This document shows positions 11,080 through 42,540 of a stretch of 47,319 nt of DNA, in pieces. The notes under the pieces were generated by a model. It was not told the origin of the DNA and did no database searches. It saw only the letters and a list, made by a program, of their open reading frames with translations. The stretch lies in sequence record NC_042046.1; one strand, written 5' to 3'. Source of the DNA: Escherichia phage C119. The first letter of the stretch is position 1. Each line of letters begins with the position of its first letter. The position numbers and the translations under genes were made by a program.

Positions 11080-11151
11080 ATAGCACTAATTGCTAAACAG
11101 AAATACCAAGGAAGGTTTACAATTAAAAAACTTAAACAAGAGGTGATTGAT

Positions 11152-11389: not shown

Positions 11390-11400
11390 GGAGAAATATT

Positions 11401-12165: not shown

Positions 12166-12174
12166 GGAGAGGTA

Positions 12175-13468: not shown

Positions 13469-13475
13469 AATCACA

Positions 13476-13500
13476 ACCCGCCTAGTGCGGGTTTTTTATT
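13476..13500 (+). terminator. Hairpin plus T-tract between gpI-like and gpJ-like genes
   Basis: cccgcctagtgcggg followed by ttttttatt. Confidence 0.5.
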
Positions 13501-13509
13501 TAGTGTAGA

Positions 13510-16935: not shown

Positions 16936-16958
16936 ATGATTAAGCCCCTTTCGGGGCT
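16932..16958. terminator. Bidirectional rho-independent terminator between gpJ-like gene (+) and receptor-binding gene (-)
   Basis: aagcccctttcggggctt hairpin flanked by T-rich sequence on the plus strand. Confidence 0.7.
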
Positions 16959-16965
16959 TTTTCTT

Positions 16966-17937
16966 TTAGTAGAAGTTGGGAATAAATGGAAGTGCCATTG
17001 ATATGTTTGTATCAAATGGGAATTGCGCGCCAGTTTGAGTTGAATAGTTACCTATAACAGTGCCTGGGACGGCTCTAACTGAACCTCCAGACATGCAAAC
17101 ACCCTTGTATCGTAAGTTATTATATCCACCAGTGACTCTAGTTGTCGCTCCGCATCTAAGTATTGGGAAGAACCCACCATTCACCGACTGGTAACCATTA
17201 TTAATCTGCATAAATCCACTTAGAACAAATGGCCTCCTGACGCTAGAGAAAACTATCTTCCCAGCGCTGTTTGATATCGTTAAACCCGGACCAGCTACTG
17301 GAGGTGTATTATTGAAAATAACTAACTGAACGTAAGTACTTGCAGCAACATCATCAATCCCATTGTACGTTATATCCCTACACCATATCGTACTACCATC
17401 ACTTTCAAGTGATACGTTTTGGTTATCCCATTTACCAAAAGGAATGCCGCCAACTGGCAATGATGCAGAGCCATTAACCTGGATGCCACCAACCCAAGCA
17501 GCAGTCATTAATCTGGAATTACTTGATATCGCTGTAAAGTCAGTCGAGTTCTCAACAAGGACACCGGGGCTTGATTGTGATGATGCTGGTAAAATCTCAA
17601 AGCACTGACCGCCAAACTGCAATATGCGACCATTAGCGCCGTTAAAGTTACTTAATGTAATCCTTCCAACCCCATCATTAACCTTCGAGAACCCATTCAT
17701 GTAATAAACTTCTGGTATAACATCATATGCATCAACATAAACAGCCTGAGTTGGCAGGCAGAATGCTGTTGAGCCAGGAGTCATAGTCAGACCGAAATCC
17801 CATGATGATGCTGGTGAGCTTAACCCGCTAGTGTTTATTGAACCAGTCACGGCTGGAACTCTCAAGCCAGCTGTAATTTCCATTGCTGGCCTTCCGTCAT
17901 TCAAATCTATCAAGATACCTTGAGGCATTATTTCCAC
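16966..17937 (-). CDS. Putative receptor-binding protein / tail fibre (323 aa)
   Basis: Minus-strand ORF convergent with the gpJ-like gene, Gly/Ser/Asn/Thr-rich beta-type composition, immediately downstream of a lipoprotein gene (Llp-pb5-like arrangement). Confidence 0.5.
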
Positions 17938-18173
17938 TCCTTTGAGCCGTGATCTGCAACTGAGCCGCCGTAGCCTCCACCAACCTTTGACTCAATGCCA
18001 GCATAACGAATATCAACCTCTCCAGCTGCAACAATAACACCACCTTTCCACTTAGCTACGCAAACATCACCCGCCTGAGTCGCACACCATCCGTCAGGGC
18101 GCGGACCAGAAGAACAACCTACCGTCATGATTGCTGCTGCTGCGATGATTGCTGATTTGATGAAGTTAGTCAT
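17928..18173 (-). CDS. Small lipoprotein, candidate superinfection-exclusion factor (Llp/Cor-like)
   Basis: Minus-strand ATG at 18173 with AAGGAA RBS; N-terminus [23 protein letters not shown] has a signal peptide plus lipobox; mature part about 60 aa with two further Cys; overlaps the start of the receptor-binding gene. Confidence 0.6.
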
Positions 18174-18356
18174 TTTGTATTCCTTAGTCAGTATGTTTCG
18201 TTTCGATGGAGTAACTATAGCAAAGGCTTCTGCTGTAGTCTTTAGCAAATCGTGCTATTTTATATACGCGTAACCGATGTAACTCGATGTATACAATCTC
18301 ATCCGCTGAAAATTGTATACGCTTTTTACGCGAAGATACGCATTAGTTACATTTAT

Positions 18357-18424
18357 AAATCCTTATATAATAAGGGTTTAGAGTATTATTATTATTATAT
18401 ATATTACTATGTATATCTTGTAAC
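18357..18424. repeat. AT-rich element copy A with (TTA)n microsatellite
   Basis: aaatccttatataataagggtttagagtattattattattatatatattactatg...; near-identical to the element at 38617-38686; lies in a divergent intergenic region. Confidence 0.8.
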
Positions 18425-18719
18425 TACTCTCTATAGCTATGTTGTTGTGTTTTACTAAAATACTATGTTTGATTTCCTGTTAAGGAGAAAATGCATATAT
18501 ATATAGATAGGGTGCAAATTTGGTGGATACATTGGTTACAAGGGTTACATTCAGCATTCATGCGGCGTACAGAGCATCAAAGCGTATTTATGTGAGTTTT
18601 ACAGCTATATACAAAATAGCACGAATAATCAAAAAGCATGATTCCTGATTGGTTATAGTGCACTCACCGGCAGCAGTGGTGCTGCTTTTGATGCAAAAAA
18701 TGCACCACAAAATCCGGGA

Positions 18720-19451
18720 GTGAAAATAATTCAACCCCAAAAACTAGAGATGATAGATATGAATCTGATTAATATTGATGAAAACGTAACCATGAGTAGC
18801 CTTGAAATTGCCGAGATCACGGGAAAGCGACATGACCACGTATTAAGGGATATAAGGGAGATGCTAAATGATGAAGAGGTATCCCCAGATTTGGGGACAC
18901 CATGCGTAGTTGATGATAATACAAAATTGTATTCTCAAAATGGAGGATGTGGCCTCAAATTTGAGGGCACCTACACTAACGAGCAAAACGGTCAGTCTTA
19001 CCCATGTTTTAACTTGCCATACCGTGAAACTATGATTTTGATGGTCGGTTATAACAGAAAGGTAGCCGCAAGAATTATTGACCGCTGGCTTCATCTTGAG
19101 CGGGAGAATAAATTACTAAAAGACCACATGAAGAAGATGGTTTCACTTGACGAGGTCAAAGTTTACAAGATCGAGGCTGCGTCAGCAAAAGCCGCGCAGC
19201 ACAGAGCTGAGGATAACTATTACGCGATTGAGAAGTTCATGTTTAAGAGCATGGATAAGTGTGGAAATCCTGCGGAACTTGATGAGCAATACTTCGATGT
19301 TAAGTTCGAGTCAAATCGTTACCATGACTCTCAAGAGGTGGTTTACAAATATCAGGCTCAGCTTGAGGTTGCCTGCGAAAAGTTAAAGGCTAAAGATGAG
19401 CTTATTGCTAATCTAGTTGATAAGAATAGCGAGATTCTTAAGTTGAAATAA
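18720..19451 (+). CDS. Rha-family phage regulatory protein / antirepressor-like
   Basis: N-terminal region contains SSLEIAEITGKRHDHVLRDIREML, a signature I recognise from Rha/antirepressor proteins; start ambiguous (GTG 18720 or ATG 18750/18759/18792). Confidence 0.6.
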   Translation: MKIIQPQKLEMIDMNLINIDENVTMSSLEIAEITGKRHDHVLRDIREMLNDEEVSPDLGTPCVVDDNTKLYSQNGGCGLKFEGTYTNEQNGQSYPCFNLPYRETMILMVGYNRKVAARIIDRWLHLERENKLLKDHMKKMVSLDEVKVYKIEAASAKAAQHRAEDNYYAIEKFMFKSMDKCGNPAELDEQYFDVKFESNRYHDSQEVVYKYQAQLEVACEKLKAKDELIANLVDKNSEILKLK

Positions 19452-19524
19452 TAGGCAAAACCAATTGGATAAAATTAGCCACGGATGGCATAGTTAAACC
19501 ACACAAACAAAGAGAGATATAGAA

Positions 19525-19719
19525 ATGGCATACTTCATTATTCAAGAGCGAAACAATCCTATTTTCGGCACATGTTACTACTGTGTAGATGGCTCAGGTT
19601 ACACAAGCAATAAATCAGAGGCGGCAAGATTTGATACAAAGCAGGAAGCTATTGAATACGCCCACGTGACAGATGAGGAGCTTGGTTCAGTAATGAAGAT
19701 TATTAAGGTGAAGGAATAA
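19525..19719 (+). CDS. Hypothetical protein (64 aa)
   Basis: ATG 19525 preceded by conserved leader acaaacaaagagagatatagaa, nearly identical to the leader at 20725-20747. Confidence 0.55.
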   Translation: MAYFIIQERNNPIFGTCYYCVDGSGYTSNKSEAARFDTKQEAIEYAHVTDEELGSVMKIIKVKE

Positions 19720-19722
19720 ATT

Positions 19723-20691
19723 ATGAGCTTCAAGGTTTACACTAGCGACGAGTTAACCAACGAAGCCTACCACAAGGAGTCAGACCATGTGTCTGGCTCT
19801 GGTCTGGCTCACATCTTCTCAACTTGCCCCGCTGCTTATAAGTTTGCAGAGCATGATGATAGCAATAAGGCTTTAAAGTTCGGTACATTAGCCCACACGG
19901 TTATTCTTGAAAACTCTGTATTCGATGCGACTTACTATCGCCAGCCAGCGCAAGAAGAGTTTGATGATCTGATTACTAGCAAGACTGCTTTGGCAACTCG
20001 GTTGAAGTCGATGGGTATTGCTGGAACATCTGGTAAGGATTATCCAGAATTAATGGAGATTCTGGCGCTGAGCGGTGAATCACTTAACGTATGGTGGGAT
20101 ATTCAGCGCTCTAACGAGGTTAAAGCGAACGGTCGCGAGATTGTATCAGCTAAAGACTTTGACACAGTACATGCGATGCGAGAGGTGCTGTGTGGCATTC
20201 CTGCATACAATGCGATAGTGAACAGTAAAACCGCTCAGCGAGAGTTATCAATCTTCGGTGAGATTAACGAGTGCGGCGTTAAGGTTCGTCTTGACCATGT
20301 CGATGTCGTTGATGATGTAGTTTATATCCGTGACTACAAGACGACTAGCGACGCATCTCCATCTGGATTTGGGAGATTGGCCTTCAAGCATGGTTACTTG
20401 CTAAAAATGGCGCTTCAGCATGATTTGTTTGTTCGCGCCTTTAATGAGAAGCGTCGAGTTGTTGTTCAGCTTCTTTGCCAGGAAAAGAAAAGCCCATTCC
20501 TTCCAATGTGCTACACGATAACAAAAGAGCACTTAAAGGTTGGTAGATTGCAATACATGAGCGCCCTATCCACATACAAGCAATGCAAGAAACTTGATAT
20601 TTGGCCTGGTTACGGATTTGGCGAAACAGAGATGGAACTGCAAGTTCCTGAGTATGAGATGAAGAAGTACGAAGATAGCACGAATAGCTAA
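19723..20691 (+). CDS. PD-(D/E)XK family recombination exonuclease (YqaJ/RecE/Cas4-like)
   Basis: Motif VRLDHVDVVDDVVYIRDYKTT (D...D/E-x-K core) and gene order exonuclease then annealing protein; stop codon lies inside the cassette motif. Confidence 0.6.
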   Translation: MSFKVYTSDELTNEAYHKESDHVSGSGLAHIFSTCPAAYKFAEHDDSNKALKFGTLAHTVILENSVFDATYYRQPAQEEFDDLITSKTALATRLKSMGIAGTSGKDYPELMEILALSGESLNVWWDIQRSNEVKANGREIVSAKDFDTVHAMREVLCGIPAYNAIVNSKTAQRELSIFGEINECGVKVRLDHVDVVDDVVYIRDYKTTSDASPSGFGRLAFKHGYLLKMALQHDLFVRAFNEKRRVVVQLLCQEKKSPFLPMCYTITKEHLKVGRLQYMSALSTYKQCKKLDIWPGYGFGETEMELQVPEYEMKKYEDSTNS

Positions 20692-20747
20692 AACGGTATT
20701 AAATTGATGGGGTATAGTTACCTCATCGACAACAAAGAGAGATAGAA

Positions 20748-21395
20748 ATGAAGACTTCAGAGAGTAACAAAACAGTTTTACAGGCACTATTTAAAGCTCG
20801 CACAGGATTTGCGAAGGCGGCAAGAGACAAGCAGAACAGTCACCTAAAGAATAGATACGCAACACTTGATTCCATGCTGGAGGCTGTAATCCCAGCACTT
20901 GATGATAACGACTTAATGATTATGCAGAGCATGTTAGAAACATCAACTACTGACAATCTTAACGTAGAGACGACTCTCTATCACGTTTCTGGCGAGTGGG
21001 TTAGCTTCTTCATGATTATGCCAATAGTTAAGAAAGACCCGCAAGGAGTAGGATCTGCATTTACATACGCTCGGCGTTACTCACTAGCGGCGGCTTTGGG
21101 AATTAGTCAGTCTGACGATGATGCGCAGATGGCAGTTAAGAGCGTCAAGGACTGGAAGCGCGATATTGAGAAGGCAGAAACTCGAGAAGAGCTTATCGAA
21201 ATCTACAAATCATGCAAATCACAAGCTGACACGGCAACGTGGGGTATAGTAGAGAAAGCGATAATAGATAAACAAGCAGAGATCAAAATGGCTTCCGCAA
21301 GTGGCTTCAACCCAGCTAAGCCAAAGGAAGTCGCTAAAAAAGTTGCAAACGCAACGAATGAAGTAGTAGAATCACAATCAATCGAGCAGTTCTAA
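20748..21395 (+). CDS. ERF-like single-strand annealing protein
   Basis: Segment NRYATLDSMLEAVIPAL...FTYARRYSLAAALGI is typical of ERF-family annealing proteins; located between exonuclease and SSB. Confidence 0.55.
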   Translation: MKTSESNKTVLQALFKARTGFAKAARDKQNSHLKNRYATLDSMLEAVIPALDDNDLMIMQSMLETSTTDNLNVETTLYHVSGEWVSFFMIMPIVKKDPQGVGSAFTYARRYSLAAALGISQSDDDAQMAVKSVKDWKRDIEKAETREELIEIYKSCKSQADTATWGIVEKAIIDKQAEIKMASASGFNPAKPKEVAKKVANATNEVVESQSIEQF

Positions 21396-21436
21396 ACTAA
21401 ACGGGGCTTCGGCCCCAAAATCAAACGAGATATGAA

Positions 21437-21931
21437 ATGAATTGGGACAAATACTTTGATATCGTGGATGGTAAGCTGGTGTGGAAGTATAGAGAAGAGA
21501 TGCGGCCACAGTGGAACGCAAGATATCAAGGAAAAGAGGCAGGAGCGATAAGGAATGGATACCTTCAGACCGAAATCAATGGGAAGTGTTATTTTTGCCA
21601 TAGAATTATGTGGGAAATGATTAACGGTCGTATACCGGATGGAATGTGCATAGACCACTTGAATCACAAGAGAGATGATAACAGGATTGAAAATCTTAGA
21701 GTTGTATCTCATCAAGATAATTGCAAGAATCAGAGCTTGCGATTGAAAAATAAATCAGGAGTATCGGGAGTTTACTGGAATAAGAAAGCAAATAAGTGGC
21801 TAGCTCAAATAAGTATAAAAGGAAAAAGAAAGCATGTTGGTTTCTTTTTATCAATATCTGACGCTGAGAATGCGATAAAACAAGCAAGAAAAGAAAATCT
21901 TTACCACGAAAATCATTGCTCTAATATTTGA
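21437..21931 (+). CDS. HNH homing endonuclease with AP2-like domain (copy 2)
   Basis: NGRIPDGMCIDHLNHKRDDNRIENLRVVSHQDNCKNQ (HNH) and SGVSGVYWNKKANKWLAQI (AP2-like); N-terminus MNWDKYFDIVDGKLVW parallels copy 3. Confidence 0.8.
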   Translation: MNWDKYFDIVDGKLVWKYREEMRPQWNARYQGKEAGAIRNGYLQTEINGKCYFCHRIMWEMINGRIPDGMCIDHLNHKRDDNRIENLRVVSHQDNCKNQSLRLKNKSGVSGVYWNKKANKWLAQISIKGKRKHVGFFLSISDAENAIKQARKENLYHENHCSNI

Positions 21932-21954
21932 AATAAACAAAAAGAGGTATCAAA

Positions 21955-22377
21955 ATGCACGTAATTACAGGTCAGATTCGTAAGGCTCCTTTCACTAAAG
22001 ATGGTCAGAACGCCAAGGGTAACTGGAAGATGTACGCTATCGAAATGAGCGAATCTTATAAAACACGAGATGGAGAGCGTAAGTATAGTAATTATCGAGC
22101 TACCTTCTTTGCTAGCGAGGCGCAAATTAGCTGGTATGACGAAGCATTTCAGGAAGGAAAAGTTATCTCTGTGAGCGGCGATTCATTAGCGGTTAATGAG
22201 CGCGAACATAATGGCAAGACATATATTACGCTTGAGTTGCAGAATCCTCGATTGATGTTTAGTCAGCGAGGAGGTGAATCAGAACAGCAGCAGCAGCGAC
22301 AACAAGCTCAACAGCAACAGAGACAGCAGCCGCAGCAACAAAGCCGATTTAGTGATGAAGATGATATTCCGTTTTAA
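21955..22377 (+). CDS. ssb: Single-stranded DNA-binding protein
   Basis: OB-fold-sized N-terminal domain, Gln-rich linker and canonical acidic C-terminal tail ...FSDEDDIPF. Confidence 0.85.
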   Translation: MHVITGQIRKAPFTKDGQNAKGNWKMYAIEMSESYKTRDGERKYSNYRATFFASEAQISWYDEAFQEGKVISVSGDSLAVNEREHNGKTYITLELQNPRLMFSQRGGESEQQQQRQQAQQQQRQQPQQQSRFSDEDDIPF

Positions 22378-22385
22378 TGCAAAAG

Positions 22386-22411
22386 ATAAAGCCCCTTTCG
22401 GGGCTTTTTTA
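22386..22411. terminator. Bidirectional terminator between ssb (+) and tailspike (-)
   Basis: aaagcccctttcggggcttt hairpin with A-tract upstream and T-tract downstream. Confidence 0.75.
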
Positions 22412-25126
22412 TTGTGACGTTACATCACCATTCAAACTCAAAAATACTGATTGTTTTGTCAAATCAACACCACCTTTAAGCGAATAGTATCTTGAAGCGC
22501 AATAATCAGACTCATCTGAATAGCTGCCAACGTAAACACCAAAGCCATATCCAGAGCAAGCTACATCACCAGCGCCTTGACCTGAATACATGGTTACATA
22601 GTTACCAGCTGTTGTTAGTATAGGTCTGACATCAATATCTATATACTGAGAATCAAATGACCTTCTAACTCTAAATCCAGTATTCAGGTTTAAGATGCTC
22701 CACCAAACCTTACCAGATACATCAAAACCAAGAGCAATATTGTAAGTACCACCATTGACCATTCTTGATGAGACTGGCAACACACCTGATAAAACTCTTG
22801 TTTCACCTGATGCTGATATTAACAATGAGACACTGTGTTCTCCTGATGCCATCACGTTATACTGCAAGTAAAGAGCATTACTATTAACTCCAAAACCAGT
22901 CCCTATAGCTATAAGGTTAAAGTCTTCAGCAACAGTTATGGTCGGCGATATATTGCATGTAGCGGTGAAACCTAGTGACGGGTCAAATCCAGTGCATATA
23001 ATCTTATCTTTATTTGCCTGTGAAAGCCTTAGCCAATATTGCTGCCCAACTGATGATGCCGCTGCGGCGAATACTGGTGTATTAGAGACCCCATCAAAAG
23101 CTGAAGTGTCGTTTGCTGGCTTAATTCTTGTCTTCCTTTTGTCTATCAGTCCGTTTATCTTCAGGTTTCCTGAATACTCAGCAACATAGTTAGTGTCCCC
23201 TGAGAAATTTGGGCCAAAGTAACCAGATTCAACAACCCCATCGATCACAACATCAGATCTTGAGTCAAGGAATCTGAAGTTGCCAGCGGAAGTTGGCCTT
23301 CCATCGCCATTGTTAGATACATAGTTAAGCCCAACAAAACCATAGATTCTTACAGAGCTATTTGAAAACGAAACGTTATAATCTCTGTAGTTTGAGTTTA
23401 TGCTGTTCCTGTTACTATTTAATCCATTAAATACCACATTTCTAGAGTTTACAATTCTAACACCGTCACCACCGCAATCCTGCGCCTCTATAGCTGACAT
23501 GGTGATGTTTTGGCAGTTATCAATCAGGATGCCATAAGCATCATCAAGCTCATTATAAGCCGACCAACCCGACCAAATAAACTTACCGCCAACAATCCTA
23601 CAGTTTCCGGCATTCCTAAGTATTAGACAATTTCTTCCACAGGTGTTTACCTTTATGTTATTCCATGTGAAGTCTGTTGTTTCGTTAATCAATCCGTCTT
23701 TTTTTATGTGCTGAATAAGAACATCATCAAGAACAGGAGAGTAGTTACCAGCAGCAACGAAAATTCCGTAAACATCAAACCCAGCAATGTGAGTGTTTCT
23801 TATCGTTAAGTCCCTCCTAGGGTCAGCACCAGTGTTGAATGGGTAATTGGTTGATAACCCAGTCGGCGTAGGGATGTAAATCCCAGCAGTACCATCAGTA
23901 AACGCCGTGTCTTGCTGGGCTCCAGTGCCGTAAAGAGCAATACCTTCAATATGAATGAGCGAGCAAGAATCAGAAACCTCAATTAAAGAGCCAATTGATG
24001 AACTAAGCTGAGTTATTCTTGACTTGTGCTTGCCAAAACCAATTATAGAGCAAGATTTATTTCTCATTACCAGGTTTGATGCCATGTAGTCGCTATCAAG
24101 CTTTAATGCCAGCCCGGAGTCTAGGATTTGCTGTATCTGTGTCGTTGAGTCTGATGTCGATGACTTAATGGCCCCAAGTTCGCAAGGCGACAGCTCCCCG
24201 CTACAGATTCTTTCCCAGTAATAACCTGTACTTGATTCAAAAACCAATCCTGAAGATAATCCATATGATAAAGATGACTCCGGCTTACAAACAAAGAACC
24301 CACCACCATAACCAAGACCACCAATGTAAGAATCACAATAGACAACCTCTAAGTCATAAATTCTGGCAGAGTTTGTCATTGCTGATACTGATTCAAACCT
24401 TCTTGTGTAATCCTGTTGAATCCAAAAACCAACTCCAATACCACCTGTAGACTGTGGTGATGAGTTTTGTGGTATGGATTTTGGAACGCTACCAGACCAG
24501 TAATAAACCGAAACATGATTGTCATTAAAGTAAATTGCAGGCTGAGTTCTTGAGTTTATTTCTCCACCATTTGAGAAATCAACTACAAGAGCAGATGACA
24601 CAGAAGCCGCAGCAGAGCTTGCTATTGTAGCTGAAGAGGAAGCCGAGTTAGCGCTACTTTCAGCTAACTGCCTATCAGAAGATACCTGATCTTTGTCAGA
24701 AGAAACTTGAGCAGCATCAACAGCAACTTGCTGAGATTGCATGTTGACATTATTTACGCTTTGCTGGAAAGAATCAGAATCAAATTGATTAAAAGCATCA
24801 ACTGCCGCTGCAACCTCTGTTTCACGGGACTGATAATAACGAAGTGTCTCAGCAACGTCCTGAGCAAGACCTTGGACAGTAATTCCGTCATGAGCAAGGA
24901 TTGAGTACTGAGTCCCAGCTGGCGCAGTAAAACCTTTATCATTGAATACACGAATCTCTGTATCGCTTAAAATCTCAGCGATAGTAACAATGCTTGTCGG
25001 GGTGGTGTTAAAAATCATTGTTGCGCCAACTCGGATTAGCGTTAGTGGTTGCCTCCACGTGGTGCCAACACCAGTTACAGTTCCGTCAGCTGCAAGCGAT
25101 GCAGTTCCAGCGTCATAAATTGCCAT
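22409..25126 (-). CDS. Tailspike / tail fibre with right-handed beta-helix (pectate-lyase-like) domain; candidate depolymerase
   Basis: 905 aa; N-terminal anchor-like region, Ser/Ala-rich linker, then long Asn/Gly/Ile/Val-rich repeats (...NCRIVGGKFIWSGWSAYN...GILIDNCQNITMSAIEAQDCGGDGVRIVNSRNVVFNGL...) typical of beta-helix tailspikes. Confidence 0.65.
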   Translation of the reverse strand: MAIYDAGTASLAADGTVTGVGTTWRQPLTLIRVGATMIFNTTPTSIVTIAEILSDTEIRVFNDKGFTAPAGTQYSILAHDGITVQGLAQDVAETLRYYQSRETEVAAAVDAFNQFDSDSFQQSVNNVNMQSQQVAVDAAQVSSDKDQVSSDRQLAESSANSASSSATIASSAAASVSSALVVDFSNGGEINSRTQPAIYFNDNHVSVYYWSGSVPKSIPQNSSPQSTGGIGVGFWIQQDYTRRFESVSAMTNSARIYDLEVVYCDSYIGGLGYGGGFFVCKPESSLSYGLSSGLVFESSTGYYWERICSGELSPCELGAIKSSTSDSTTQIQQILDSGLALKLDSDYMASNLVMRNKSCSIIGFGKHKSRITQLSSSIGSLIEVSDSCSLIHIEGIALYGTGAQQDTAFTDGTAGIYIPTPTGLSTNYPFNTGADPRRDLTIRNTHIAGFDVYGIFVAAGNYSPVLDDVLIQHIKKDGLINETTDFTWNNIKVNTCGRNCLILRNAGNCRIVGGKFIWSGWSAYNELDDAYGILIDNCQNITMSAIEAQDCGGDGVRIVNSRNVVFNGLNSNRNSINSNYRDYNVSFSNSSVRIYGFVGLNYVSNNGDGRPTSAGNFRFLDSRSDVVIDGVVESGYFGPNFSGDTNYVAEYSGNLKINGLIDKRKTRIKPANDTSAFDGVSNTPVFAAAASSVGQQYWLRLSQANKDKIICTGFDPSLGFTATCNISPTITVAEDFNLIAIGTGFGVNSNALYLQYNVMASGEHSVSLLISASGETRVLSGVLPVSSRMVNGGTYNIALGFDVSGKVWWSILNLNTGFRVRRSFDSQYIDIDVRPILTTAGNYVTMYSGQGAGDVACSGYGFGVYVGSYSDESDYCASRYYSLKGGVDLTKQSVFLSLNGDVTSQ

Positions 25127-25178
25127 GTTATTTCTCCTATTTGATAGATGAAACCTATTGTATCAGATTAAATGCAAT

Positions 25179-25198
25179 AAAAAACCCTCCGAAGAGGG
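25179..25198 (-). terminator. Rho-independent terminator downstream of primase gene (minus strand)
   Basis: ccctccgaagaggg hairpin; T-tract on the minus strand (plus strand aaaaaa at 25179-25184). Confidence 0.55.
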
Positions 25199-25204
25199 TG
25201 ATTG

Positions 25205-26128
25205 CTATGAATGCTTATCTATCAGATCTTGCGGGTTATATAACCTTCTTTCAAGCCCCATCTTGAAATTGCCACCTTTAGGTATTACGACTTTTAGACC
25301 TCTATCATCAGCAACATAAAGCGACTCCTTTTCATCAGCTAAGCAAGCTATCCTGCACTCTTTATTCCTGAGTTCATAAGCAACCATTTCTAAGTTGTGG
25401 TGAGTTAGGCAGTCGTAAGTTGTCCTTTTTGTGCATGCCGATACATGTAGTGCGTTAATCCAGCCAACAGTGAGGTAGATAGCGCCATCACTACATTTAC
25501 TTACCGGAACAACCGAGCCGCGAGTGTAGTCTTTTGCGAGATATGACTCATTACCCTCTTCATCTATAAACTTTACGTTACAAGGCTCATCTGATAAACC
25601 ATCCTCGTAAACCATAAAGCATTGCTCGGCTATAATTTCTTCTCCAGACCCCTTTATTCCTATTTTGTATTCCCGTTCAGTAATAATTGCTTCAAATCTC
25701 GTAAGCTGTGTCATTTCTACAGACTTGGTGCGAGAGATTACCTTCTCGATTGATTCAATGGATGCCTGAGCGCCAAAGTTATATCTCTGAACTCGGCTCG
25801 CTGCTTTGTTTGCCTTCACTATGATTTCGACGGGAGTCAAATTAAGCCAGTCGCCAAGTAAATTTATAGCTTCCACAAATCTAAGGCCGGAACATTTCAT
25901 AACCCAGCCTATTCCTGAGTCACTGCCGCACTTAGAGCAAACTGCGGCCCCATTACCTTTTTCGCTTCCTATTTCGTCTGTAAACCTGAATCTGTCAGTA
26001 CCAAAGCAATAAGGGCACGGCCCGTGCTTCTTGCTAAGGTGTCTATCATTCCAACCAAGCTCCTTTGCATAAAATGATTTCCACAATCCAGCCATTTTAG
26101 GTATTACTTCATTCTTGTCGTAATTCAT
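25205..26128 (-). CDS. DNA primase-like protein (Zn-ribbon plus Toprim-like)
   Basis: C4 zinc ribbon HGPCPYCFGTDRFRF...AAVCSKCGSD near the N-terminus followed by an acidic-residue-containing domain; location in the replication module. Confidence 0.5.
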   Translation of the reverse strand: MNYDKNEVIPKMAGLWKSFYAKELGWNDRHLSKKHGPCPYCFGTDRFRFTDEIGSEKGNGAAVCSKCGSDSGIGWVMKCSGLRFVEAINLLGDWLNLTPVEIIVKANKAASRVQRYNFGAQASIESIEKVISRTKSVEMTQLTRFEAIITEREYKIGIKGSGEEIIAEQCFMVYEDGLSDEPCNVKFIDEEGNESYLAKDYTRGSVVPVSKCSDGAIYLTVGWINALHVSACTKRTTYDCLTHHNLEMVAYELRNKECRIACLADEKESLYVADDRGLKVVIPKGGNFKMGLERRLYNPQDLIDKHS

Positions 26129-26140
26129 TTTTATTTAATC

Positions 26141-26173
26141 CAATAAAAAGGTTGTACCGATTATGGCACAACC
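26141..26173 (-). terminator. Rho-independent terminator downstream of the HTH regulator gene (minus strand)
   Basis: ggttgt...acaacc hairpin followed by a T-tract on the minus strand. Confidence 0.6.
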
Positions 26174-26180
26174 TTAATTT

Positions 26181-26654
26181 TTACTCTTTAGCTTTTCGTG
26201 CTTCTTCTCTTTCTTTCTTAACCTTTCGCCATGATTTACGCTGCGGCTTGGTTGCTAACTCAGCTTCTGTAACAACTCGAAGCATCTGACGCTTCTTGCA
26301 TCGCAGTGTTAGAGGCTTGCCGTTACCGTCGAACTGTAAATCAGGTCGGCAGAATGTAGCCCTGAACCCCTCGCCAGTTCGCTTATATCGATTATGCGCA
26401 AGCTGTGCGCCGCGAGCTGAAATCATTCCCCGCTTACACCATTCTTCTACAGCCTGGCGCGTAACCTTTAGCTGCTTAGCTAGATTGGCCTTGCTGCCGT
26501 AGAAGTCCAATACAATCTCAAGGCGCGCCCTTAATCCCGCTCTCACTTCATCCTTTAGTACATAGTAACCTGATGGACGCTTACGCGGCTTCTTGTCTTC
26601 TGTGCGAATTGTTCCGTTGTTACCATTAAGAGTACGCTTGTCAATTGAATCCAT
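26181..26654 (-). CDS. Helix-turn-helix DNA-binding protein (putative transcriptional regulator)
   Basis: HTH-like segment LAKQLKVTRQAVEEWCKRGMIS; very basic C-terminus; divergently oriented to the helicase operon. Confidence 0.55.
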   Translation of the reverse strand: MDSIDKRTLNGNNGTIRTEDKKPRKRPSGYYVLKDEVRAGLRARLEIVLDFYGSKANLAKQLKVTRQAVEEWCKRGMISARGAQLAHNRYKRTGEGFRATFCRPDLQFDGNGKPLTLRCKKRQMLRVVTEAELATKPQRKSWRKVKKEREEARKAKE

Positions 26655-26665
26655 TTTCTCACCTC

Positions 26666-26746
26666 AATAGCACTTTTTGTTAAACATTGGTTTATATGGC
26701 TGTTATTATATCGTCAATCGAACGAACATTAAAGGCATTTGATATT
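26666..26746 (+). promoter_or_regulatory. Conserved cassette copy upstream of helicase operon
   Basis: aatagcactttttgttaaa followed by tttatatgg (-10-like) and leader tcaatcgaacgaaca resembling the cassette leader. Confidence 0.5.
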
Positions 26747-28690
26747 ATGGAAAACCGATTGAAAACAATACAAAAACAGATTGAAGAATTGGGCGAAGAT
26801 AAGATTAAAGAGATTCAAACTAAATTCACCTCTTCTAACTGTATGGTTCCGTATAGCTATCAGTGTGTTATGTACAATGAGATTGCAAAGCGCATTAGTC
26901 GCTATGAGCATCCATTTATCGCAATGGCTTCAGTTTCTGCTGGTAAGACTCTGGTTTTTGGTATGGTTGCTAAGCGTTGCTCTGAGCTTGGCTTGCCTAT
27001 GCTTGTTCTTGCTCGTCAGGCAGAGCTGGTTAGCCAGAATGCTTCTGAGATTTCTGATTACGGGGTTCCTAACTCCATTTATTGCTCTGGGCTTGGAATA
27101 AAATCATCTTATTTCCCTGTGGTGGTTGGCTCTGAGGGCACAGTAGTTGGCGGGCTTAAGAAGTCACTTGGCGATTTCTGTCCTGCGGTAGTTGCTATTG
27201 ATGAGTGTCACCATATTGATGACCAGGACATAGCGGAGGCAATTGATAACAATGAGACTGCGCAACAGGCATCAGATAAGGGGCGTAGCCAGTATACGGT
27301 CATCATCCTGACTTTAATGGAGCGCTGCCGTGCTAAGTATGGCAAGAATCTTCGTATCTTTGGACTGACTGGTTCTCCTTTCCGTGGAACTACGCCAATA
27401 GTTGTTGAAAACAAAAAGGAGTTGGGATTTTGGCGTGAGACGGTCACAAATATCGATACAAACTACCTGGTAGAGTTCGGTTCCGTGGTTCCGACAAACT
27501 TTGGTGCTACTGATGGCGTTGGTTACGACCTGTCAGAGTTTGATGCATCATCTGAAGATGGTGTTCAGGATTACACTAAAGCCCAGCTTGAAGCCATGGA
27601 TAAAAAGATTCAGGCATCTGGAACAATGACAGCGGAGATAATGAAGAAAGTATGGCTTGCCGCGAAAGACAGGAATGGAGTTCTGGTAACATGCGCAGGT
27701 GAGCGCCATTGCCACGAAGCCGCAAGTTACCTTCCTGAAGGTGAAAAGTTCTGCATTATAACTGGAAAGACTGGCGAGAAGCAGCGCAAGGAGTTGCTTG
27801 ATAAGTGCTTTAGCGGGGAGATTAAATATTGCTTTCAGGTTCAGGCGCTAACCACTGGCGTAAATGTGCCTACATGGGATACAAGCGTTATTCTGCGTAA
27901 GATCGGTAGCCTTACGCTCCTGGTTCAGCTACTTGGTCGAGGAATGCGTAAGCTTAAGAAGCTCCATGAAGATAAAGGAATGGTAAAGAATGACCATTTG
28001 GTACTGGACTTCGCAGGAACGATGGACTCTATGGCATCATTGTACTTCAATCCAATTCTTGAGCAGGCTCAATATCAGCTACGAAAGAGTAATGGCAAGG
28101 AGACTAAGCAGTGTCCAGTATGCGGAACAGAGAACAGCTTCTTTGCTCGACGTTGCATGCATATTGATGAGAATAATAATCGCTGCGAATATTTCTGGGT
28201 TAGTCGCACATGTGAAGACCAGAAAGACCCACGAACCGGAAAGGTTATCGTTAAAGGCTGTGGAGTTCAGAATGACGTTGCAGCTAAGATTTGTAGGGGT
28301 TGCGATTGCACTTTGCTTGATCCAAATCTCAACTTAAGCGGCAAACATTACCGCAAGAACGACTGGTTTGATGTTGTTGACTTTAAGGTTGGGCTAACAA
28401 AGAACCAATCAGGAATCATCTACAACTACATCCTTGATGATGGCATGGGTGGGACATTCAAAGCTCATGAGGTTTTCTTTGTAGAGTCTGGCCATCGAGT
28501 ATGTAAAACGCTCTGGTTGAACAATGGAATTAAAGGTCACGTAGTCGACATGAACGCTAAGCGATATATGGCTGCATATCGCAATGCTCGCAAGATTATG
28601 GAGTATGCGCAGTACATCCATGCCCCTAAGAGGGTAACTCACCGCAAGACCGCTAAAGGTGGCGATAATATTGCTAATAAGGAGTTCTAA
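26747..28690 (+). CDS. Superfamily 2 (DEAD/DEAH-type) helicase with C-terminal Cys-rich zinc-ribbon region
   Basis: Walker A SAGKTLVFG, DEAH-like VAIDECHHID, C-terminal CPVCGT...RRCMH...CRGCDC; ATG 26747 (ORF track begins at 26687). Confidence 0.75.
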   Translation: MENRLKTIQKQIEELGEDKIKEIQTKFTSSNCMVPYSYQCVMYNEIAKRISRYEHPFIAMASVSAGKTLVFGMVAKRCSELGLPMLVLARQAELVSQNASEISDYGVPNSIYCSGLGIKSSYFPVVVGSEGTVVGGLKKSLGDFCPAVVAIDECHHIDDQDIAEAIDNNETAQQASDKGRSQYTVIILTLMERCRAKYGKNLRIFGLTGSPFRGTTPIVVENKKELGFWRETVTNIDTNYLVEFGSVVPTNFGATDGVGYDLSEFDASSEDGVQDYTKAQLEAMDKKIQASGTMTAEIMKKVWLAAKDRNGVLVTCAGERHCHEAASYLPEGEKFCIITGKTGEKQRKELLDKCFSGEIKYCFQVQALTTGVNVPTWDTSVILRKIGSLTLLVQLLGRGMRKLKKLHEDKGMVKNDHLVLDFAGTMDSMASLYFNPILEQAQYQLRKSNGKETKQCPVCGTENSFFARRCMHIDENNNRCEYFWVSRTCEDQKDPRTGKVIVKGCGVQNDVAAKICRGCDCTLLDPNLNLSGKHYRKNDWFDVVDFKVGLTKNQSGIIYNYILDDGMGGTFKAHEVFFVESGHRVCKTLWLNNGIKGHVVDMNAKRYMAAYRNARKIMEYAQYIHAPKRVTHRKTAKGGDNIANKEF

Positions 28691-33030: not shown

Positions 33031-33246
33031 ATGAAGCATTTCTATGACGCAGCCGCCTTATCCGGTAGCGGAGTAGCTATGGGCGGCGGTTTATCTGACA
33101 ACACAATCATCGGCATTATCGGCTTAGTTATCGCCGTATGCTTTGGTATTTTTGGCGCATGGCTGCGATGGCGTGACAGTAAGGCGCTCCATAAAGCACT
33201 TGAGGATGGTGACATTCGAGAGGCAATGAGAATCAGGAGTAAATGA
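33031..33246 (+). CDS. Holin
   Basis: 71 aa, single hydrophobic TM segment IIGIIGLVIAVCFGIFGAWL, charged C-terminus, immediately upstream of the endolysin; AAGAGG RBS. Confidence 0.7.
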   Translation: MKHFYDAAALSGSGVAMGGGLSDNTIIGIIGLVIAVCFGIFGAWLRWRDSKALHKALEDGDIREAMRIRSK

Positions 33247-33728
33247 TGAGCTTCAAGAATAAGGTCATTGGTTCGGCTGTGGCTGGAGCCATGGCATTAG
33301 CTATTCCGTTCCTGAATGAGCATGAAGGAGTTAAGTACAGGCCTTACAGAGATATTGCTGGAGTGTGGACTGTTTGCCAGGGAATCACTGGTCCTGATGT
33401 TATTCTCGGTAAAAAGTACACCCAGAGAGAATGCGATGCACTCCTGATGAAGCACCTTTCAATTCATAGAGCTGCTGTAGATAAAGCGCTGAAGGTTAAT
33501 GTTCCAGTTAGCACCAGGGCGGCGCTGTACAGTTTTTCATTCAATGTTGGAACCAGTGCAATGCGCAATTCAACTGCTATAAGGCGCATAAATCGTGGTG
33601 ATATCAGGGGAGGATGCGAGGCGTTATCTATGTGGAATAAAATCAGCGTTGGTGGTAAGAAAGTTGTTAGCAAAGGCCTGGTTAACAGGCGTAACGCGGA
33701 GATTAAGCTATGCGTCTCGGAATTGTAG
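33243..33728 (+). CDS. Endolysin (phage lysozyme family)
   Basis: Motif NEHEGVKYRPYRDIAGVWTVCQGITG matches the catalytic E...D...T region of phage lysozymes; sits between holin and spanin. Confidence 0.75.
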   Translation: MMSFKNKVIGSAVAGAMALAIPFLNEHEGVKYRPYRDIAGVWTVCQGITGPDVILGKKYTQRECDALLMKHLSIHRAAVDKALKVNVPVSTRAALYSFSFNVGTSAMRNSTAIRRINRGDIRGGCEALSMWNKISVGGKKVVSKGLVNRRNAEIKLCVSEL

Positions 33729-34114
33729 TTCTGGTAATTGCATCACTGACTGGCTGCTCTGCTATGTCAGCCATTTCTGATTTCTTACCAGCAAAGGATG
33801 GCGTCGAGGCAACGGCGCAGGTTGGCGAGTCAAACCAGAAAACTGGCGTTGGATTATCCAGCCAGACAGACAAATCTAGCTCAACAGAGAGCGATATGCG
33901 CAACTCAACTAACAGAGATGTAGATTCATCAAGCCATAAAAAGACTGCTGCTACGGGTCTCTCAGCTAACACAATAACAGCTGAAAAGATTGAAATTCAT
34001 AGCACTGAAAACTCTGGGGTTGACTCTTTAGTCTGGGGTATTCTGGCTGGATTAGTTTCAGGTTTGCTAACTTACTTCGCTTTAAGATTCGCAGGAAACA
34101 AAAAAGGAGCCTAA
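33710..34114 (+). CDS. Unimolecular spanin (u-spanin-like)
   Basis: N-terminal lipoprotein signal MRLGIVVLVIASLTGCSA plus C-terminal TM helix LVWGILAGLVSGLLTYFAL in one polypeptide, the arrangement described for T1 gp11. Confidence 0.65.
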   Translation: MRLGIVVLVIASLTGCSAMSAISDFLPAKDGVEATAQVGESNQKTGVGLSSQTDKSSSTESDMRNSTNRDVDSSSHKKTAATGLSANTITAEKIEIHSTENSGVDSLVWGILAGLVSGLLTYFALRFAGNKKGA

Positions 34115-42464: not shown

Positions 42465-42540
42465 GTTCTGCTGGCGTAACAGGATAACGCAGAGACCTCC
42501 TAAGTCTCAGTTACTGGTTCGAGTCCAGTGCGGAACACCA
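42465..42540 (+). tRNA. tRNA-Arg (anticodon CCU, reads AGG) with encoded CCA
   Basis: Hand-folded cloverleaf: acceptor gttctgc/gcggaac (7 bp, one G-U), D-arm gcgt-aacaggata-acgc, anticodon arm gagac-ctCCTaa-gtctc (U33, A37 present), 4-nt variable loop, T-arm actgg-TTCGAGT-ccagt, discriminator A, CCA. Confidence 0.75.

What the first reader, a model, noticed from the sequence alone, without database searches (positions are those of the whole stretch)
18720..26654. No lysogeny genes despite Rha-like and HTH regulators
Across the whole window there is no integrase, excisionase, CI-like repressor or attachment-site signature, while recombination and lysis genes are present. This points to a virulent lifestyle; the Rha-like and HTH proteins are then more likely transcriptional regulators of the lytic programme than lysogeny components.
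Basis: inference. Interest (0 to 1): 0.2.

Follow-up and report, generated by a model that had tools for sequence, protein, structure and literature searches.

The report
Virulent T1-like phage without lysogeny genes
The window is the published genome of the strictly lytic coliphage phiC119, which has no integration or repressor genes, so the finding is correct but ordinary and already in print.

Summary
A Pfam scan of every stop-to-stop ORF of at least 60 aa in all six frames found no tyrosine or serine recombinase, excisionase, transposase, ParAB, protelomerase or S24-type repressor.

No part of the window matches any of 5,426 complete E. coli genomes or 72,556 plasmids. The phage tRNA-Arg has no host match.

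The window is Escherichia phage phiC119 (47,319 bp; Rogunavirus, Drexlerviridae; 99.3% identical to phiKP26). Its 2016 paper already reports clear plaques, a 20-min latent period, a burst of 210 and "no integrase and repressor genes".

- **HTH protein (157 aa).** It is a core gene of this virulent family: 829 phage records, including T1, always between primase and a divergently transcribed helicase. Its fold resembles Cro.
- **Rha-like protein.** It is accessory. T1 lacks it, its N-terminal domain is swapped among relatives, and it has no ANT antirepressor domain.
- **Side result.** About 14 copies of a promoter module (ATAGCACnnnTTGnTAAA, 20 nt, TATAGT) drive the non-structural genes. The repeat is already described for phage TLS with unknown function. 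I propose the HTH protein binds it; this is untested.

Verdict: real, correctly interpreted, already known, low interest.

The parts
17928..18248 (-). Phage lipoprotein gene (annotated Cor-like), next to the DUF6453 gene at 16966-17937. It is the only gene with a lysogeny-sounding name in relatives: T1 annotates its counterpart 'lysogenic conversion protein Cor'.
   Evidence: PF24052 E 9.2e-36 and PF20051 E 9e-137. The T1 annotation has cor at the same syntenic position.
18241..18640 (.). AT-rich divergent control region upstream of rha. It holds two copies of the ATAGCAC promoter module in opposite orientation: first A at 18258 (-) and a degenerate copy at 18616 (+). These two copies are the 17-nt inverted repeat that was detected first.
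18720..19451 (+). Rha-like protein. GenBank uses the GTG start at 18720 (243 aa). Homologue alignment favours ATG at 18753 or 18762. The N-terminal Rha domain has a helix-helix-hairpin topology that looks winged-helix-like. The C-terminal part is a long two-helix hairpin. There is no ANT domain.
   Evidence: PF09669. phrog_8235 E 1.1e-108. 100% identical to the 'regulatory protein' of phage C119. AF2 pLDDT 75. Alignment A3.
19525..19719 (+). 64-aa conserved protein of unknown function.
   Evidence: phrog_5247 E 7.7e-35.
19723..20691 (+). RecE / exonuclease VIII-like PD-(D/E)XK exonuclease. It serves homologous, not site-specific, recombination.
   Evidence: PF12684 E 1.1e-15. phrog_412 E 1e-97.
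20748..21395 (+). Erf single-strand annealing protein.
   Evidence: PF04404 E 8.7e-23. phrog_155.
21437..21931 (+). HNH_3 + AP2 homing-type endonuclease. It is one of three in the genome.
   Evidence: PF13392 E 1.5e-17 and PF00847 E 1e-5.
21955..22377 (+). Single-stranded DNA-binding protein.
   Evidence: phrog_44 E 3.6e-30.
22388..22407 (.). Bidirectional intrinsic terminator between the converging ssb and tailspike genes.
22409..25126 (-). Tailspike (Tail_spike_N plus a right-handed beta-helix).
   Evidence: PF18668 E 3.3e-13 and PF13229 E 1.7e-4.
25205..26128 (-). DNA primase with a zinc-ribbon primase domain.
   Evidence: PF08273 E 1.2e-9. phrog_510 E 1.2e-96.
26148..26175 (-). Intrinsic terminator or attenuator between the HTH gene and the primase gene. 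A terminator is annotated at the same place in T1.
   Evidence: 11-bp stem plus a T run. T1 terminator at 35930-35969.
26181..26654 (-). 157-aa Cro/CI-type HTH regulator, a core gene of Drexlerviridae. It has an invariant N-terminal basic arm (DKRxxNGNNGTxR), an all-alpha Cro-like HTH (residues about 35-93) and a conserved C-terminal extension.
   Evidence: phrog_2856 E 1.7e-85. 829 phage records, including T1 at 54% identity. A2 alignment. AF2 pLDDT 88.8. Foldseek best hits are Xfaso1 Cro and N15 Cro, probability 1.0, TM 0.73. Profile against PDB finds Cro proteins at E 0.013-0.025.
26655..26746 (.). Divergent control region. The module ATAGCACTTTTTGTTAAA lies at 26667-26684 (+). Twenty nt further on is TATTAT (26704-26709, +, towards the helicase gene). 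That hexamer overlaps the invariant TATAAT (26710-26705, -) of the HTH gene promoter.
   Evidence: Alignments A4 and A5 across T1, Webervirus, Changchunvirus, Warwickvirus, Tlsvirus and Henuseptimavirus..
26747..28690 (+). SF2 helicase (ResIII + Helicase_C). The start is probably ATG 26747, by homology with the curated T1 start and the 87-99 bp intergenic length in six other genera, rather than 26687 or 26696.
33031..34114 (+). Lysis cassette: holin, lysozyme and spanin.
   Evidence: PF00959 E 6.1e-36. phiKP26 RefSeq annotation.
42465..42540 (+). Phage tRNA-Arg (CCT). It is not similar to any E. coli sequence, so it is not an att-type identity segment.

Best explanation
The window is the genome of Escherichia phage phiC119, a T1-like siphovirus (Rogunavirus, Drexlerviridae) that can only grow lytically. 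It has no means to integrate, excise, persist as a plasmid or hold itself repressed.

**The region 18720-26654** is the recombination and replication part of the lytic programme.
- One rightward operon runs rha, orf64, recE-like exonuclease, erf, HNH, ssb and ends at a bidirectional terminator.
- One leftward unit runs HTH regulator, terminator, primase, terminator, tailspike.
- The HTH gene is transcribed divergently from the helicase operon.

**The HTH protein (inferred mechanism).**
- It is a family-wide Cro/CI-type DNA-binding protein.
- It is probably made early from a canonical sigma-70 promoter (TATAAT at 26710-26705).
- It then most likely acts at the shared control region to shut off its own promoter and switch on the helicase promoter.
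- It may do the same at the roughly 14 other module promoters (ATAGCACnnnTTGnTAAA, 20 nt, TATAGT), which lack a correctly spaced -35 element.

**The Rha-like protein (inferred).**
- It is an accessory DNA-binding protein (Rha domain plus coiled coil) inserted between cor and recE in some lineages.
- It appears to be expressed from a degenerate copy of the same module, and it is not needed for the basic programme.

**Shown:** gene content, absence of lysogeny functions, identity with a published lytic phage, synteny, and motif conservation and geometry.
**Inferred:** which protein binds the motif, and the direction of regulation.
For: **Identity**
- The window is 99.2-99.3% identical to phiKP26.
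- The Rha protein is 100% identical to the 'regulatory protein [Escherichia phage C119]' on a 47,319-bp contig, the same length as the window.
- The phiC119 paper gives a genome of 47,319 bp, clear plaques and no lysogeny genes.

**No lysogeny functions**
- The six-frame Pfam scan was negative.
- There is no copy in E. coli genomes or plasmids and no host match for the tRNA.
- The HTH family occurs only on contigs of about 45-53 kb, 78 kb at most.
- It occurs once in 185,579 species genomes, on a 46.7-kb contig.

**HTH protein**
- It is a core gene present in T1.
- The helicase / regulator / terminator / primase arrangement is conserved in T1 and six other genera.
- Its fold and sequence signals are Cro-like.
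- The control region holds invariant elements.

**Promoter module**
- The 18-mer occurs 9 times against 0.08 expected. GTGCTATT occurs 16 times against 2.2 expected.
- A -10-like hexamer lies at a fixed 20(+/-1) nt downstream in phiC119, T1 and Vibrio phage Vc1.

**Rha**
- It is absent from T1.
- Its N-terminal domain is swapped while the C-terminus is conserved.
- It has no ANT domain.
Against: - No experiment links the HTH protein to the repeated motif.
- The predicted recognition helix of the HTH is not strongly conserved in alignment A2, although the motif is nearly invariant. The most conserved parts of the protein are its N-terminal arm and C-terminal extension.
- The motif could instead be a UP-like or enhancer element read by host RNA polymerase, or a 'stoperator', as the TLS authors suggest.
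- The dyad symmetry is only partial, because the right half is TG(C/T)TA.
- The Rha fold search gave no significant structural neighbour, so its DNA-binding role rests on the family name and on topology.
- No lysogen-isolation experiment is reported for phiC119. The lytic call rests on clear plaques, growth curves and genomics.
Confidence: 0.9

Rival explanations
1. The Rha-like protein is not a regulator of the phage's own lytic programme. It is an accessory host- or prophage-directed factor, for example an antirepressor acting on repressors of resident prophages, or an anti-defence or superinfection-related factor, acquired as a mobile module.
For: - It is accessory and patchy: about 79 near-full-length matches against 829 records for the HTH gene.
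- It is absent from T1 at the same locus.
- It is much more divergent than the flanking genome: 91% identity to phiKP26 against 99% genome-wide, and 55% to Rogue1.
- The segment 18651-18837 is the only stretch here that does not align with phiKP26.
- Its N-terminal domain is swapped among relatives.
- PHROG neighbours are annotated as antirepressors.
Against: - It lacks the ANT/KilAC domain (PF03374) that most Rha homologues carry.
- It heads the recombination operon and has a degenerate copy of the phage's own promoter module.
- No target repressor is known.
Confidence: 0.3
2. The repeated ATAGCAC...TTGnTAAA element is read directly by host RNA polymerase as a UP-like or unusual -35 element, or it acts as a roadblock ('stoperator'). 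The 157-aa HTH protein then regulates only its own locus, or it serves replication, for example as an origin-binding factor between the primase and helicase genes.
For: - The TLS paper offers exactly these readings.
- The motif is conserved in phages of E. coli, Klebsiella and Vibrio. That fits recognition by a conserved host enzyme.
- The predicted HTH recognition helix is variable.
- The gene sits between the primase and helicase genes.
Against: - TTGnTA lies 22 nt from the -10 hexamer in every copy. That is outside the usual sigma-70 spacer range.
- The element is centred at about -42, as class II activator sites are.
- The copy in the HTH leader is invariant, and its -10 overlaps the -10 of the HTH promoter.
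Confidence: 0.45
3. The phage is cryptically temperate, or it persists (pseudolysogeny or carrier state) by a non-canonical mechanism that domain searches miss.
For: - Many small ORFs have no known function.
- Drexlerviridae-sized contigs turn up in bacterial assemblies. This could reflect carrier states rather than contamination.
- The genome carries a Cro-type HTH and a Cor-like lipoprotein that are typical of lambdoid temperate phages.
Against: - No recombinase, partition or telomere-resolvase domain occurs in any frame.
- No integrated or plasmid copy is found in 5,426 E. coli genomes or 72,556 plasmids.
- Homologues never lie on chromosome-sized contigs.
- Plaques are clear and the lytic cycle is short.
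Confidence: 0.03

Closest known systems
Escherichia phage phiC119 (GenBank KT825490; PeerJ 2016 4:e2423) and its sister phiKP26 (NC_042038), genus Rogunavirus
   Same: - The genome length is the same (47,319 bp), and the Rha protein is 100% identical to the C119 'regulatory protein'.
- Nucleotide identity to phiKP26 is 99.3%, with full synteny.
- phiC119 is published as lytic, with no integrase or repressor genes.
   Different: - Nothing differs for phiC119.
- Compared with phiKP26: the Rha N-terminus and its upstream region differ (18651-18837). phiKP26 has a 509-bp deletion covering the 3' part of the HNH gene and the 5' end of ssb. The record is permuted differently.
Escherichia phage T1 (Tunavirus, AY216660), archetype of the virulent Drexlerviridae
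   Same: - Gene order is the same: cor | recE-like exonuclease, erf, ssb | terminator | tail fibre, primase, terminator, HTH regulator | helicase, resolvase.
- The HTH regulator is 54% identical.
- T1 has the same ATAGCAC, 20 nt, TATAGT promoter modules.
   Different: - T1 has no Rha gene between cor and the exonuclease gene.
- T1 has a Dam methylase and nucleotide kinases that were not found here.
Cro / CI HTH proteins of lambdoid phages (P22 Cro, N15 Cro, Xfaso1 Cro, P22 C2 N-terminal domain)
   Same: - The core is an all-alpha HTH.
- Supporting signals: Foldseek probability 1.0, TM 0.73; Pfam P22_Cro E 2.6e-5; profile hits to Cro chains at E 0.013-0.025.
- The gene sits at a divergent promoter region, as cro and cI do.
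   Different: - The protein is 157 aa, with a conserved basic N-terminal arm and a C-terminal extension of about 60 aa.
- It has no partner repressor, no S24 or oligomerisation domain and no immunity region.
- The Pfam scores are below the gathering cutoffs (24.3 bits against 30.2).
Rha / Roi / Ant-type phage regulators (PF09669; P22 rha, HK022 roi, Rha+ANT antirepressors)
   Same: The N-terminal Phage_pRha domain scores above the Pfam cutoff.
   Different: - The C-terminus is a lineage-specific coiled-coil hairpin instead of the ANT/KilAC domain (PF03374).
- The Rha domain carries an inserted loop of about 25 aa.
- The gene resides in a virulent phage.
The 21-nt direct repeats of phage TLS (aaATAGCACnnnTTGnTAAAA; Phage 2024 5:173, PMC11447400)
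   Same: The consensus, the orientation with transcription and the intergenic location are the same. The TLS authors note similar repeats in T1, Rtp and Rogue1.
   Different: Beyond the passages of the TLS paper I retrieved, I add three points:
- a fixed 20(+/-1) nt distance to a -10-like hexamer;
- the absence of a properly spaced -35 element;
- a partial dyad centred near -42, and a proposed link to the core HTH protein.

Membership tests
Temperate phage (integrative lysogeny module) | Tyrosine or serine site-specific recombinase (integrase), or a DDE transposase | tested here: not met
   No PF00589, PF00239, PF07508 or PF00665 hit at E <= 0.01 in any stop-to-stop ORF of at least 60 aa, in six frames.
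Temperate phage (integrative lysogeny module) | CI-type maintenance repressor (HTH plus S24 peptidase or oligomerisation domain) with an immunity region | tested here: not met
   No Peptidase_S24 hit. The only Cro/CI-like HTH is the 157-aa core protein, which lacks such a domain and is conserved in virulent T1.
Temperate phage (integrative lysogeny module) | attP sharing an identity segment with a host attB; prophage copies in host genomes | tested here: not met
   No megablast match of the whole window in 5,426 E. coli genomes. No blastn match of the tRNA region. One hit in 185,579 species genomes, on a phage-sized contig.
Plasmid prophage (P1- or N15-like) | Partition system (ParA/ParB), plasmid replication gene or protelomerase; copies among sequenced plasmids | tested here: not met
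   No such Pfam domains. No match of 18001-43000 in 72,556 PLSDB plasmids.
Drexlerviridae / Rogunavirus | High nucleotide identity to, and synteny with, recognised members | tested here: met
   99.2-99.3% identity to Rogunavirus KP26 over 92-97% of the query. 95.7% identity to Rogue1 over window 1-25000, and 97.6% over 18000-27000. T1-type gene order.
Rha family (PF09669 / TIGR02681) | Phage_pRha domain above the curated cutoff | tested here: met
   Pfam gives 63.2-67.5 bits against a cutoff of 29.9. The NCBIfam TIGR02681 score is 34.9 bits, below its cutoff of 45.95.
Ant-type antirepressor (Rha/Bro-N + ANT/KilAC) | C-terminal ANT/KilAC domain (PF03374) | tested here: not met
   No PF03374 hit even at E <= 1. 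Most distant Rha homologues do carry it.
Ant-type antirepressor (Rha/Bro-N + ANT/KilAC) | Binds and inactivates a phage repressor | not testable with these tools
   This needs a biochemical or genetic assay.
Cro/CI HTH family | Sequence membership (P22_Cro or YdaS Pfam models above cutoff) | tested here: inconclusive
   24.3 bits against cutoffs of 30.0-30.2. Some homologues do have precomputed PF14549 or PF15943 hits.
Cro/CI HTH family | All-alpha Cro-like HTH fold | tested here: met
   The AF2 model has pLDDT 88.8. The top Foldseek hits are 3bd1 (Xfaso1 Cro) and 6on0/2hin (N15 Cro), with probability 0.96-1.0 and target TM 0.69-0.73. The E-value is only 0.016.
Cro/CI HTH family | Sequence-specific operator binding and regulation of divergent promoters | not testable with these tools
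   Only the context is shown: an invariant element and overlapping -10 hexamers in the control region.

The most novel reading that the evidence does not exclude
The 157-aa Cro/CI-type protein encoded between the primase and helicase genes of every Drexlerviridae phage is the missing trans-factor for the family-wide repeat ATAGCACnnnTTGnTAAA, which is known from TLS with unknown function.

On this reading the protein is made early from a canonical sigma-70 promoter. It binds the partial dyad centred near -42 of about 15 promoters that lack a -35 element, and so acts like a class II (cI-at-PRM-like) activator. It also shuts off its own promoter, whose -10 hexamer overlaps that of the helicase promoter. 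The result would be the early-to-middle switch of T1-like phages, built from a lambdoid switch protein in a lineage that has no lysogeny.
Probability: 0.25. Interest if true: 0.45.

Novelty: already known. Interest (0 to 1): 0.06.

Why it matters
As stated, the finding only re-derives what the phiC119 paper and the literature on T1-like phages already say. These phages are obligately lytic, which is why they are proposed for biocontrol.

Its practical value is as a sanity check. An 'anti-repressor' or 'Rha' label, a Cro-like HTH or a 'Cor lysogenic conversion' label in an annotation should not be read as evidence of temperance.

The more interesting by-product concerns transcription in T1-like phages, which is still unexplained after 80 years of work on T1. 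It appears to run on one conserved promoter module with activator-type geometry. A conserved Cro-like protein sits at the one copy that is invariant across the family. That makes a concrete, cheap experiment possible.

Tried and rejected
- **Rha fold search (PDB).** There was no significant neighbour; the best hits were MarR-type winged helices at E 0.5. 'Winged helix' is therefore only a reading of the topology.
- **Sequence search of both proteins against PDB chains.** Nothing useful came back. Only the profile of the HTH family reached Cro proteins, and weakly.
- **Local repeat search around rha and the HTH gene.** It gave a 17-nt inverted repeat (18250-18266 / 18608-18624). I first took this for an operator pair or a small mobile element. 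It turned out to be two divergently oriented copies of the genome-wide promoter module.
- **Generic sigma-70 scan.** Promoter-like sites were fewer than in shuffled sequence (22 against 31), so it was uninformative. The real promoters lack a canonical -35 element.
- **Fetching the phiC119 record or its contig directly.** This failed: it is not in the phage collection, and the protein is not on record in the contig index. Identity therefore rests on the 100% protein match, the contig length and the paper.
- **TTGnTA as an ordinary -35 hexamer.** Considered and rejected, because the spacer to the -10 hexamer is 22 nt in every copy.
- **Rha as the factor for the module.** Considered and rejected, because T1 has the module but no Rha.
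- **Incomplete assembly hiding a lysogeny module.** Considered and rejected, because only about 108 bp are missing at the junction.

Full report
**What the window is**

Megablast places the window in the genus Rogunavirus (Drexlerviridae, the T1-like siphoviruses).
- It is 99.2-99.3% identical to Escherichia phage phiKP26 over 92-97% of the query, and 94-98% identical to Rogue1, AHP42, AKS96 and JK06.
- The Rha-like protein is 100% identical to the 'regulatory protein [Escherichia phage C119]', which lies on a contig of 47,319 bp, exactly the window length.
- The phiC119 paper reports a genome of 47,319 bp.
- The record itself is not in the searchable phage collection.
- The window is circularly permuted relative to phiKP26. 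Its ends fall inside the head protease/scaffold gene (DUF2213 is split over the two ends). About 108 bp of the phiKP26 sequence are missing at the junction.
- For the question asked, the window is therefore the whole genome.

**Checking the observation**

- I took every stop-to-stop ORF of at least 60 aa in all six frames: 78 ORFs of at least 100 aa and 143 of 60-99 aa, 27,892 residues in all. I scanned them against Pfam-A at E <= 0.01.
- The hits account for a complete T1-type virion, packaging, lysis, recombination and replication set.
- There is no Phage_integrase, Resolvase/Recombinase, rve transposase, excisionase-type HTH, Peptidase_S24, ParA/ParB or protelomerase.
- A rough greedy ORF tiling (not a gene caller) covers 94% of the sequence. 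The largest gap it leaves is 244 bp.
- The only 'recombinases' are Erf and a RecE-like PD-(D/E)XK exonuclease, plus a VRR-NUC nuclease. These belong to homologous recombination.
- Lysis genes are present at 33031-34114.

**Independent checks for a prophage form**
- None of the window (1-18000, 18001-43000, 43001-47319) matches any of 5,426 complete E. coli genomes. 18001-43000 matches none of 72,556 plasmids.
- The phage tRNA-Arg(CCT) has no blastn match in E. coli. It does not look like an att-type identity segment.
- Homologues of the HTH protein (113 clusters) lie on contigs whose longest examples are about 45-53 kb, 78 kb at most, never on chromosome-sized contigs.
- A scan of one genome for each of 185,579 bacterial and archaeal species found a single copy. 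It lies on a 46.7-kb phage-sized contig in a Nitratidesulfovibrio assembly, which is presumably contamination.

**Literature**
[quoted passage not shown] It reports large clear plaques, a 20-min latent period and a burst of 210. It calls ORF23 a 'regulatory protein' (PMC5028729).
- The same is said of the Rogunavirus UDF157lw (PMC10838988).
- It is also said of the Drexlerviridae phage 2019SD1, whose authors discuss its 'anti-repressor' explicitly (PMC8590004).
- The finding is therefore correct and already published.

**The HTH protein (26181-26654, minus strand)**
- It is a core gene of the family. tblastn finds it in 829 phage records, 722 of them near full length, including T1 at 54% identity.
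- Its context is invariant in T1, in a second Rogunavirus contig, and in Webervirus, Changchunvirus, Warwickvirus, Tlsvirus, Tunavirus ISF001, Henuseptimavirus and the Vibrio phage Vc1.
  - The helicase gene is transcribed divergently 87-99 bp away.
  - The primase gene follows downstream.
  - A terminator between regulator and primase was seen in the window and is annotated in T1.
- Sequence signals are weak but consistent: P22_Cro and YdaS at E 2.6e-5, below the Pfam cutoffs, and profile hits to Xfaso1 Cro and P22 Cro chains at E 0.013-0.025.
- The AlphaFold model is confident (pLDDT 88.8). Its best structural neighbours are all-alpha Cro proteins, with probability up to 1.0 and target TM 0.73, although the E-value is only 0.016.
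- The T1 record notes HHpred similarity to the P22 C2 repressor.
- It is therefore a Cro/CI-type HTH. It carries an invariant basic N-terminal arm (DKRxxNGNNGTxR) and a conserved C-terminal extension, and it has no CI-type C-terminal domain.
- 'No CI-like repressor' is thus right in substance, with that nuance.

**The Rha-like protein (18720-19451)**
- The Rha domain is solid: PF09669 at 63-67 bits against a cutoff of 29.9.
- The protein is accessory.
  - T1 has only a 46-codon ORF at this position and no Rha homologue anywhere.
  - Near-full-length relatives occur in only about 79 phage records.
  - phiKP26 is only 91% identical here and Rogue1 only 55%.
  - The segment 18651-18837 is the one stretch of this region that does not align with phiKP26.
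- In the homologue alignment, the C-terminal ~110 residues are nearly identical among Rogunavirus-type proteins, while the N-terminal Rha domain comes in two very different versions.
- The model shows helix-helix-hairpin-helix followed by a long two-helix hairpin. It has no significant PDB neighbour.
- Unlike most Rha proteins, it has no ANT/KilAC domain. The 'anti-repressor' label in RefSeq and PHROGs is therefore not backed by the defining domain.
- Rha domains are also common in other phages annotated only as 'DNA-binding protein' or 'Roi'.

**A regulatory pattern that bears on the interpretation**
- Aligning the helicase/regulator intergenic region across genera showed two invariant elements. 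One is a TATAAT hexamer on the regulator strand. The other is the block TTTA(A/G)CAAAAA(G/A)TGCTAT just upstream of the regulator's ribosome-binding site.
- That block is not unique. With up to 3 mismatches it occurs 9 times in the window against 0.08 expected. Its core GTGCTATT occurs 16 times against 2.2 expected.
- Read in the local direction of transcription, the copies form a module. Its parts, in order, are:
  - ATAGCAC-nnn-TTG(C/T)TAAA;
  - 20 or 21 nt, often containing the terminator hairpin of the preceding gene;
  - TATAGT or TATATT;
  - a CATCGAAAC-like box in about half the copies;
  - the Shine-Dalgarno sequence and ATG.
- The same module with the same spacing is present in T1 (about 14 copies) and in Vibrio phage Vc1 (about 6).
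- The TTGnTA lies 22 nt from the -10 hexamer, too far for a normal -35 element, and nothing -35-like sits at 17 nt.
- The element contains a partial dyad, TAGCA-N5-TG(C/T)TA. If transcription starts about 7 nt after the -10 hexamer, the dyad centre is near -42, the position of class II activators.
- In the regulator/helicase region, the -10 of the module promoter (TATTAT, 26704-26709, +) overlaps the invariant TATAAT (26710-26705, -) of the regulator's own promoter. In T1 that promoter reads TTGAAT-17-TATAAT. The module lies in the regulator's leader.
- The 17-nt inverted repeat seen upstream of rha is simply two divergent module copies. One serves the Cor-like lipoprotein/DUF6453 operon. The other is degenerate and serves rha.

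**Is the repeat new?**
- No. The 2024 reannotation of phage TLS describes a 21-nt direct repeat, aaATAGCACnnnTTGnTAAAA, in 21 places. [quoted passage not shown]
- The authors note similar repeats in T1, Rtp and Rogue1. They leave the function open: stoperator, enhancer-binding site or UP element (PMC11447400).
- In the passages I retrieved, I did not see the fixed distance to a -10 hexamer, the missing -35 element, the partial dyad or the link to the HTH protein.

**Most likely mechanism**
- Shown: phiC119 has no lysogeny apparatus and belongs to a family never seen as prophages.
- Shown: the region 18720-26654 is part of the lytic recombination and replication programme. Its genes are organised in short units bounded by terminators and headed by a conserved promoter module.
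- Inferred: the HTH protein is made early from its sigma-70 promoter. It then binds the module, represses its own promoter and switches on the helicase promoter and the other module promoters. I give this about 0.25-0.3.
  - The main weakness is that the predicted recognition helix is not well conserved although the motif is.
  - The motif may instead be read by RNA polymerase itself.
- Inferred: Rha is not the factor for the module, because T1 has the module without Rha. Rha is an accessory DNA-binding protein. Its role may be fine-tuning of phage transcription or something directed at hosts or resident prophages, and it remains open.

**Verdict**
- Both are already published for this very phage, so novelty is nil and interest is low.
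- The promoter module and its possible link to the Cro-like protein are the only things here worth an experiment.

Noticed in passing
window 3730, 11080, 18258(-), 18616, 20675, 26667, 29063, 29748, 30434, 32279, 36552(-), 37506(-), 38341(-), 40001, 41117 (first A of ATAGCAC; strand of transcription): A promoter-type module is repeated genome-wide: ATAGCACnnnTTGnTAAA, 20/21 nt, TATAGT, then a CATCGAAAC-like box in about half the copies. It is conserved with identical spacing in T1 and Vibrio phage Vc1. The repeat itself is described for TLS with unknown function. The activator-like geometry (no -35 element, partial dyad centred near -42) may be a new point.
   Followed up: partly
window 47301-47319 and 1-12 (record ends); 46960-47313 and 2-670: The record is cut inside the head protease/scaffold gene (DUF2213 is split over both ends). 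About 108 bp present in phiKP26 (7757-7864) are missing. The ends are A-rich and do not align with phiKP26. This is probably an assembly-end artefact in the deposited genome.
   Followed up: partly
window 1246-2691: The gene published for phiC119 and phiKP26 as 'DNA polymerase I' is a collagen-repeat protein (Collagen, E 1.6e-25; weak CBM_5_12). RefSeq calls it a tail fibre. No DNA polymerase domain was detected in any ORF of at least 60 aa in any frame, so the phage probably relies on the host polymerase.
   Followed up: partly
window 3765-4331, 21437-21931, 31791-32282: There are three HNH_3 + AP2 homing-type endonuclease genes. phiKP26 lacks window 21558-22066, a 509-bp deletion that removes the 3' part of the middle HNH gene and the first ~110 bp of ssb. 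T1 has no HNH gene between erf and ssb.
   Followed up: partly
window 39457-40017 (+) and 34468-36057 (-): The 186-aa protein is a 'mini' paralogue of the 529-aa DUF3987 ATPase. It shares the first ~48 residues (69% identity) and the last ~60 residues (46% identity) but lacks the whole central ATPase domain.
   Followed up: partly
window 26687-26747: The helicase start is probably ATG 26747, not TTG 26687 or ATG 26696. Homology with the curated T1 start and the 87-99 bp intergenic length in six other genera support this. The -10 hexamers of both divergent promoters would otherwise lie inside the coding sequence.
   Followed up: partly
window 18492-18596: A 34-codon ORF with a strong AAGGAG ribosome-binding site lies in the AT-rich region between the lipoprotein gene and rha. 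It is annotated as gp41 in phiKP26, and T1 has a 46-codon ORF at the same place. Its function is unknown.
   Followed up: no
window 22409-25126 (-): The tailspike gene (Tail_spike_N + beta-helix) sits on the opposite strand from the other virion genes. It lies between ssb and primase, inside the replication/recombination region. This placement is conserved in T1 and Vc1.
   Followed up: no
L003 (NZ_VSMK01000220.1, 46,669-bp contig of a Nitratidesulfovibrio liaohensis assembly): A complete Rogunavirus-like phage genome sits as a separate contig in the assembly of an unrelated sulfate reducer. The HTH protein is 85% identical and the helicase, regulator, primase, tailspike order is the same. This is most likely contamination with a coliphage.
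   Followed up: no
L010 (Vibrio phage Vc1) and L002 (T1), leaders upstream of many genes: A second repeated leader motif, ACCAATCAG(GAG), occurs 18 times in Vc1 (counting both strands) and in several T1 module leaders just before the Shine-Dalgarno sequence. In phiC119 the corresponding leader box is CATCGAAAC.
   Followed up: no
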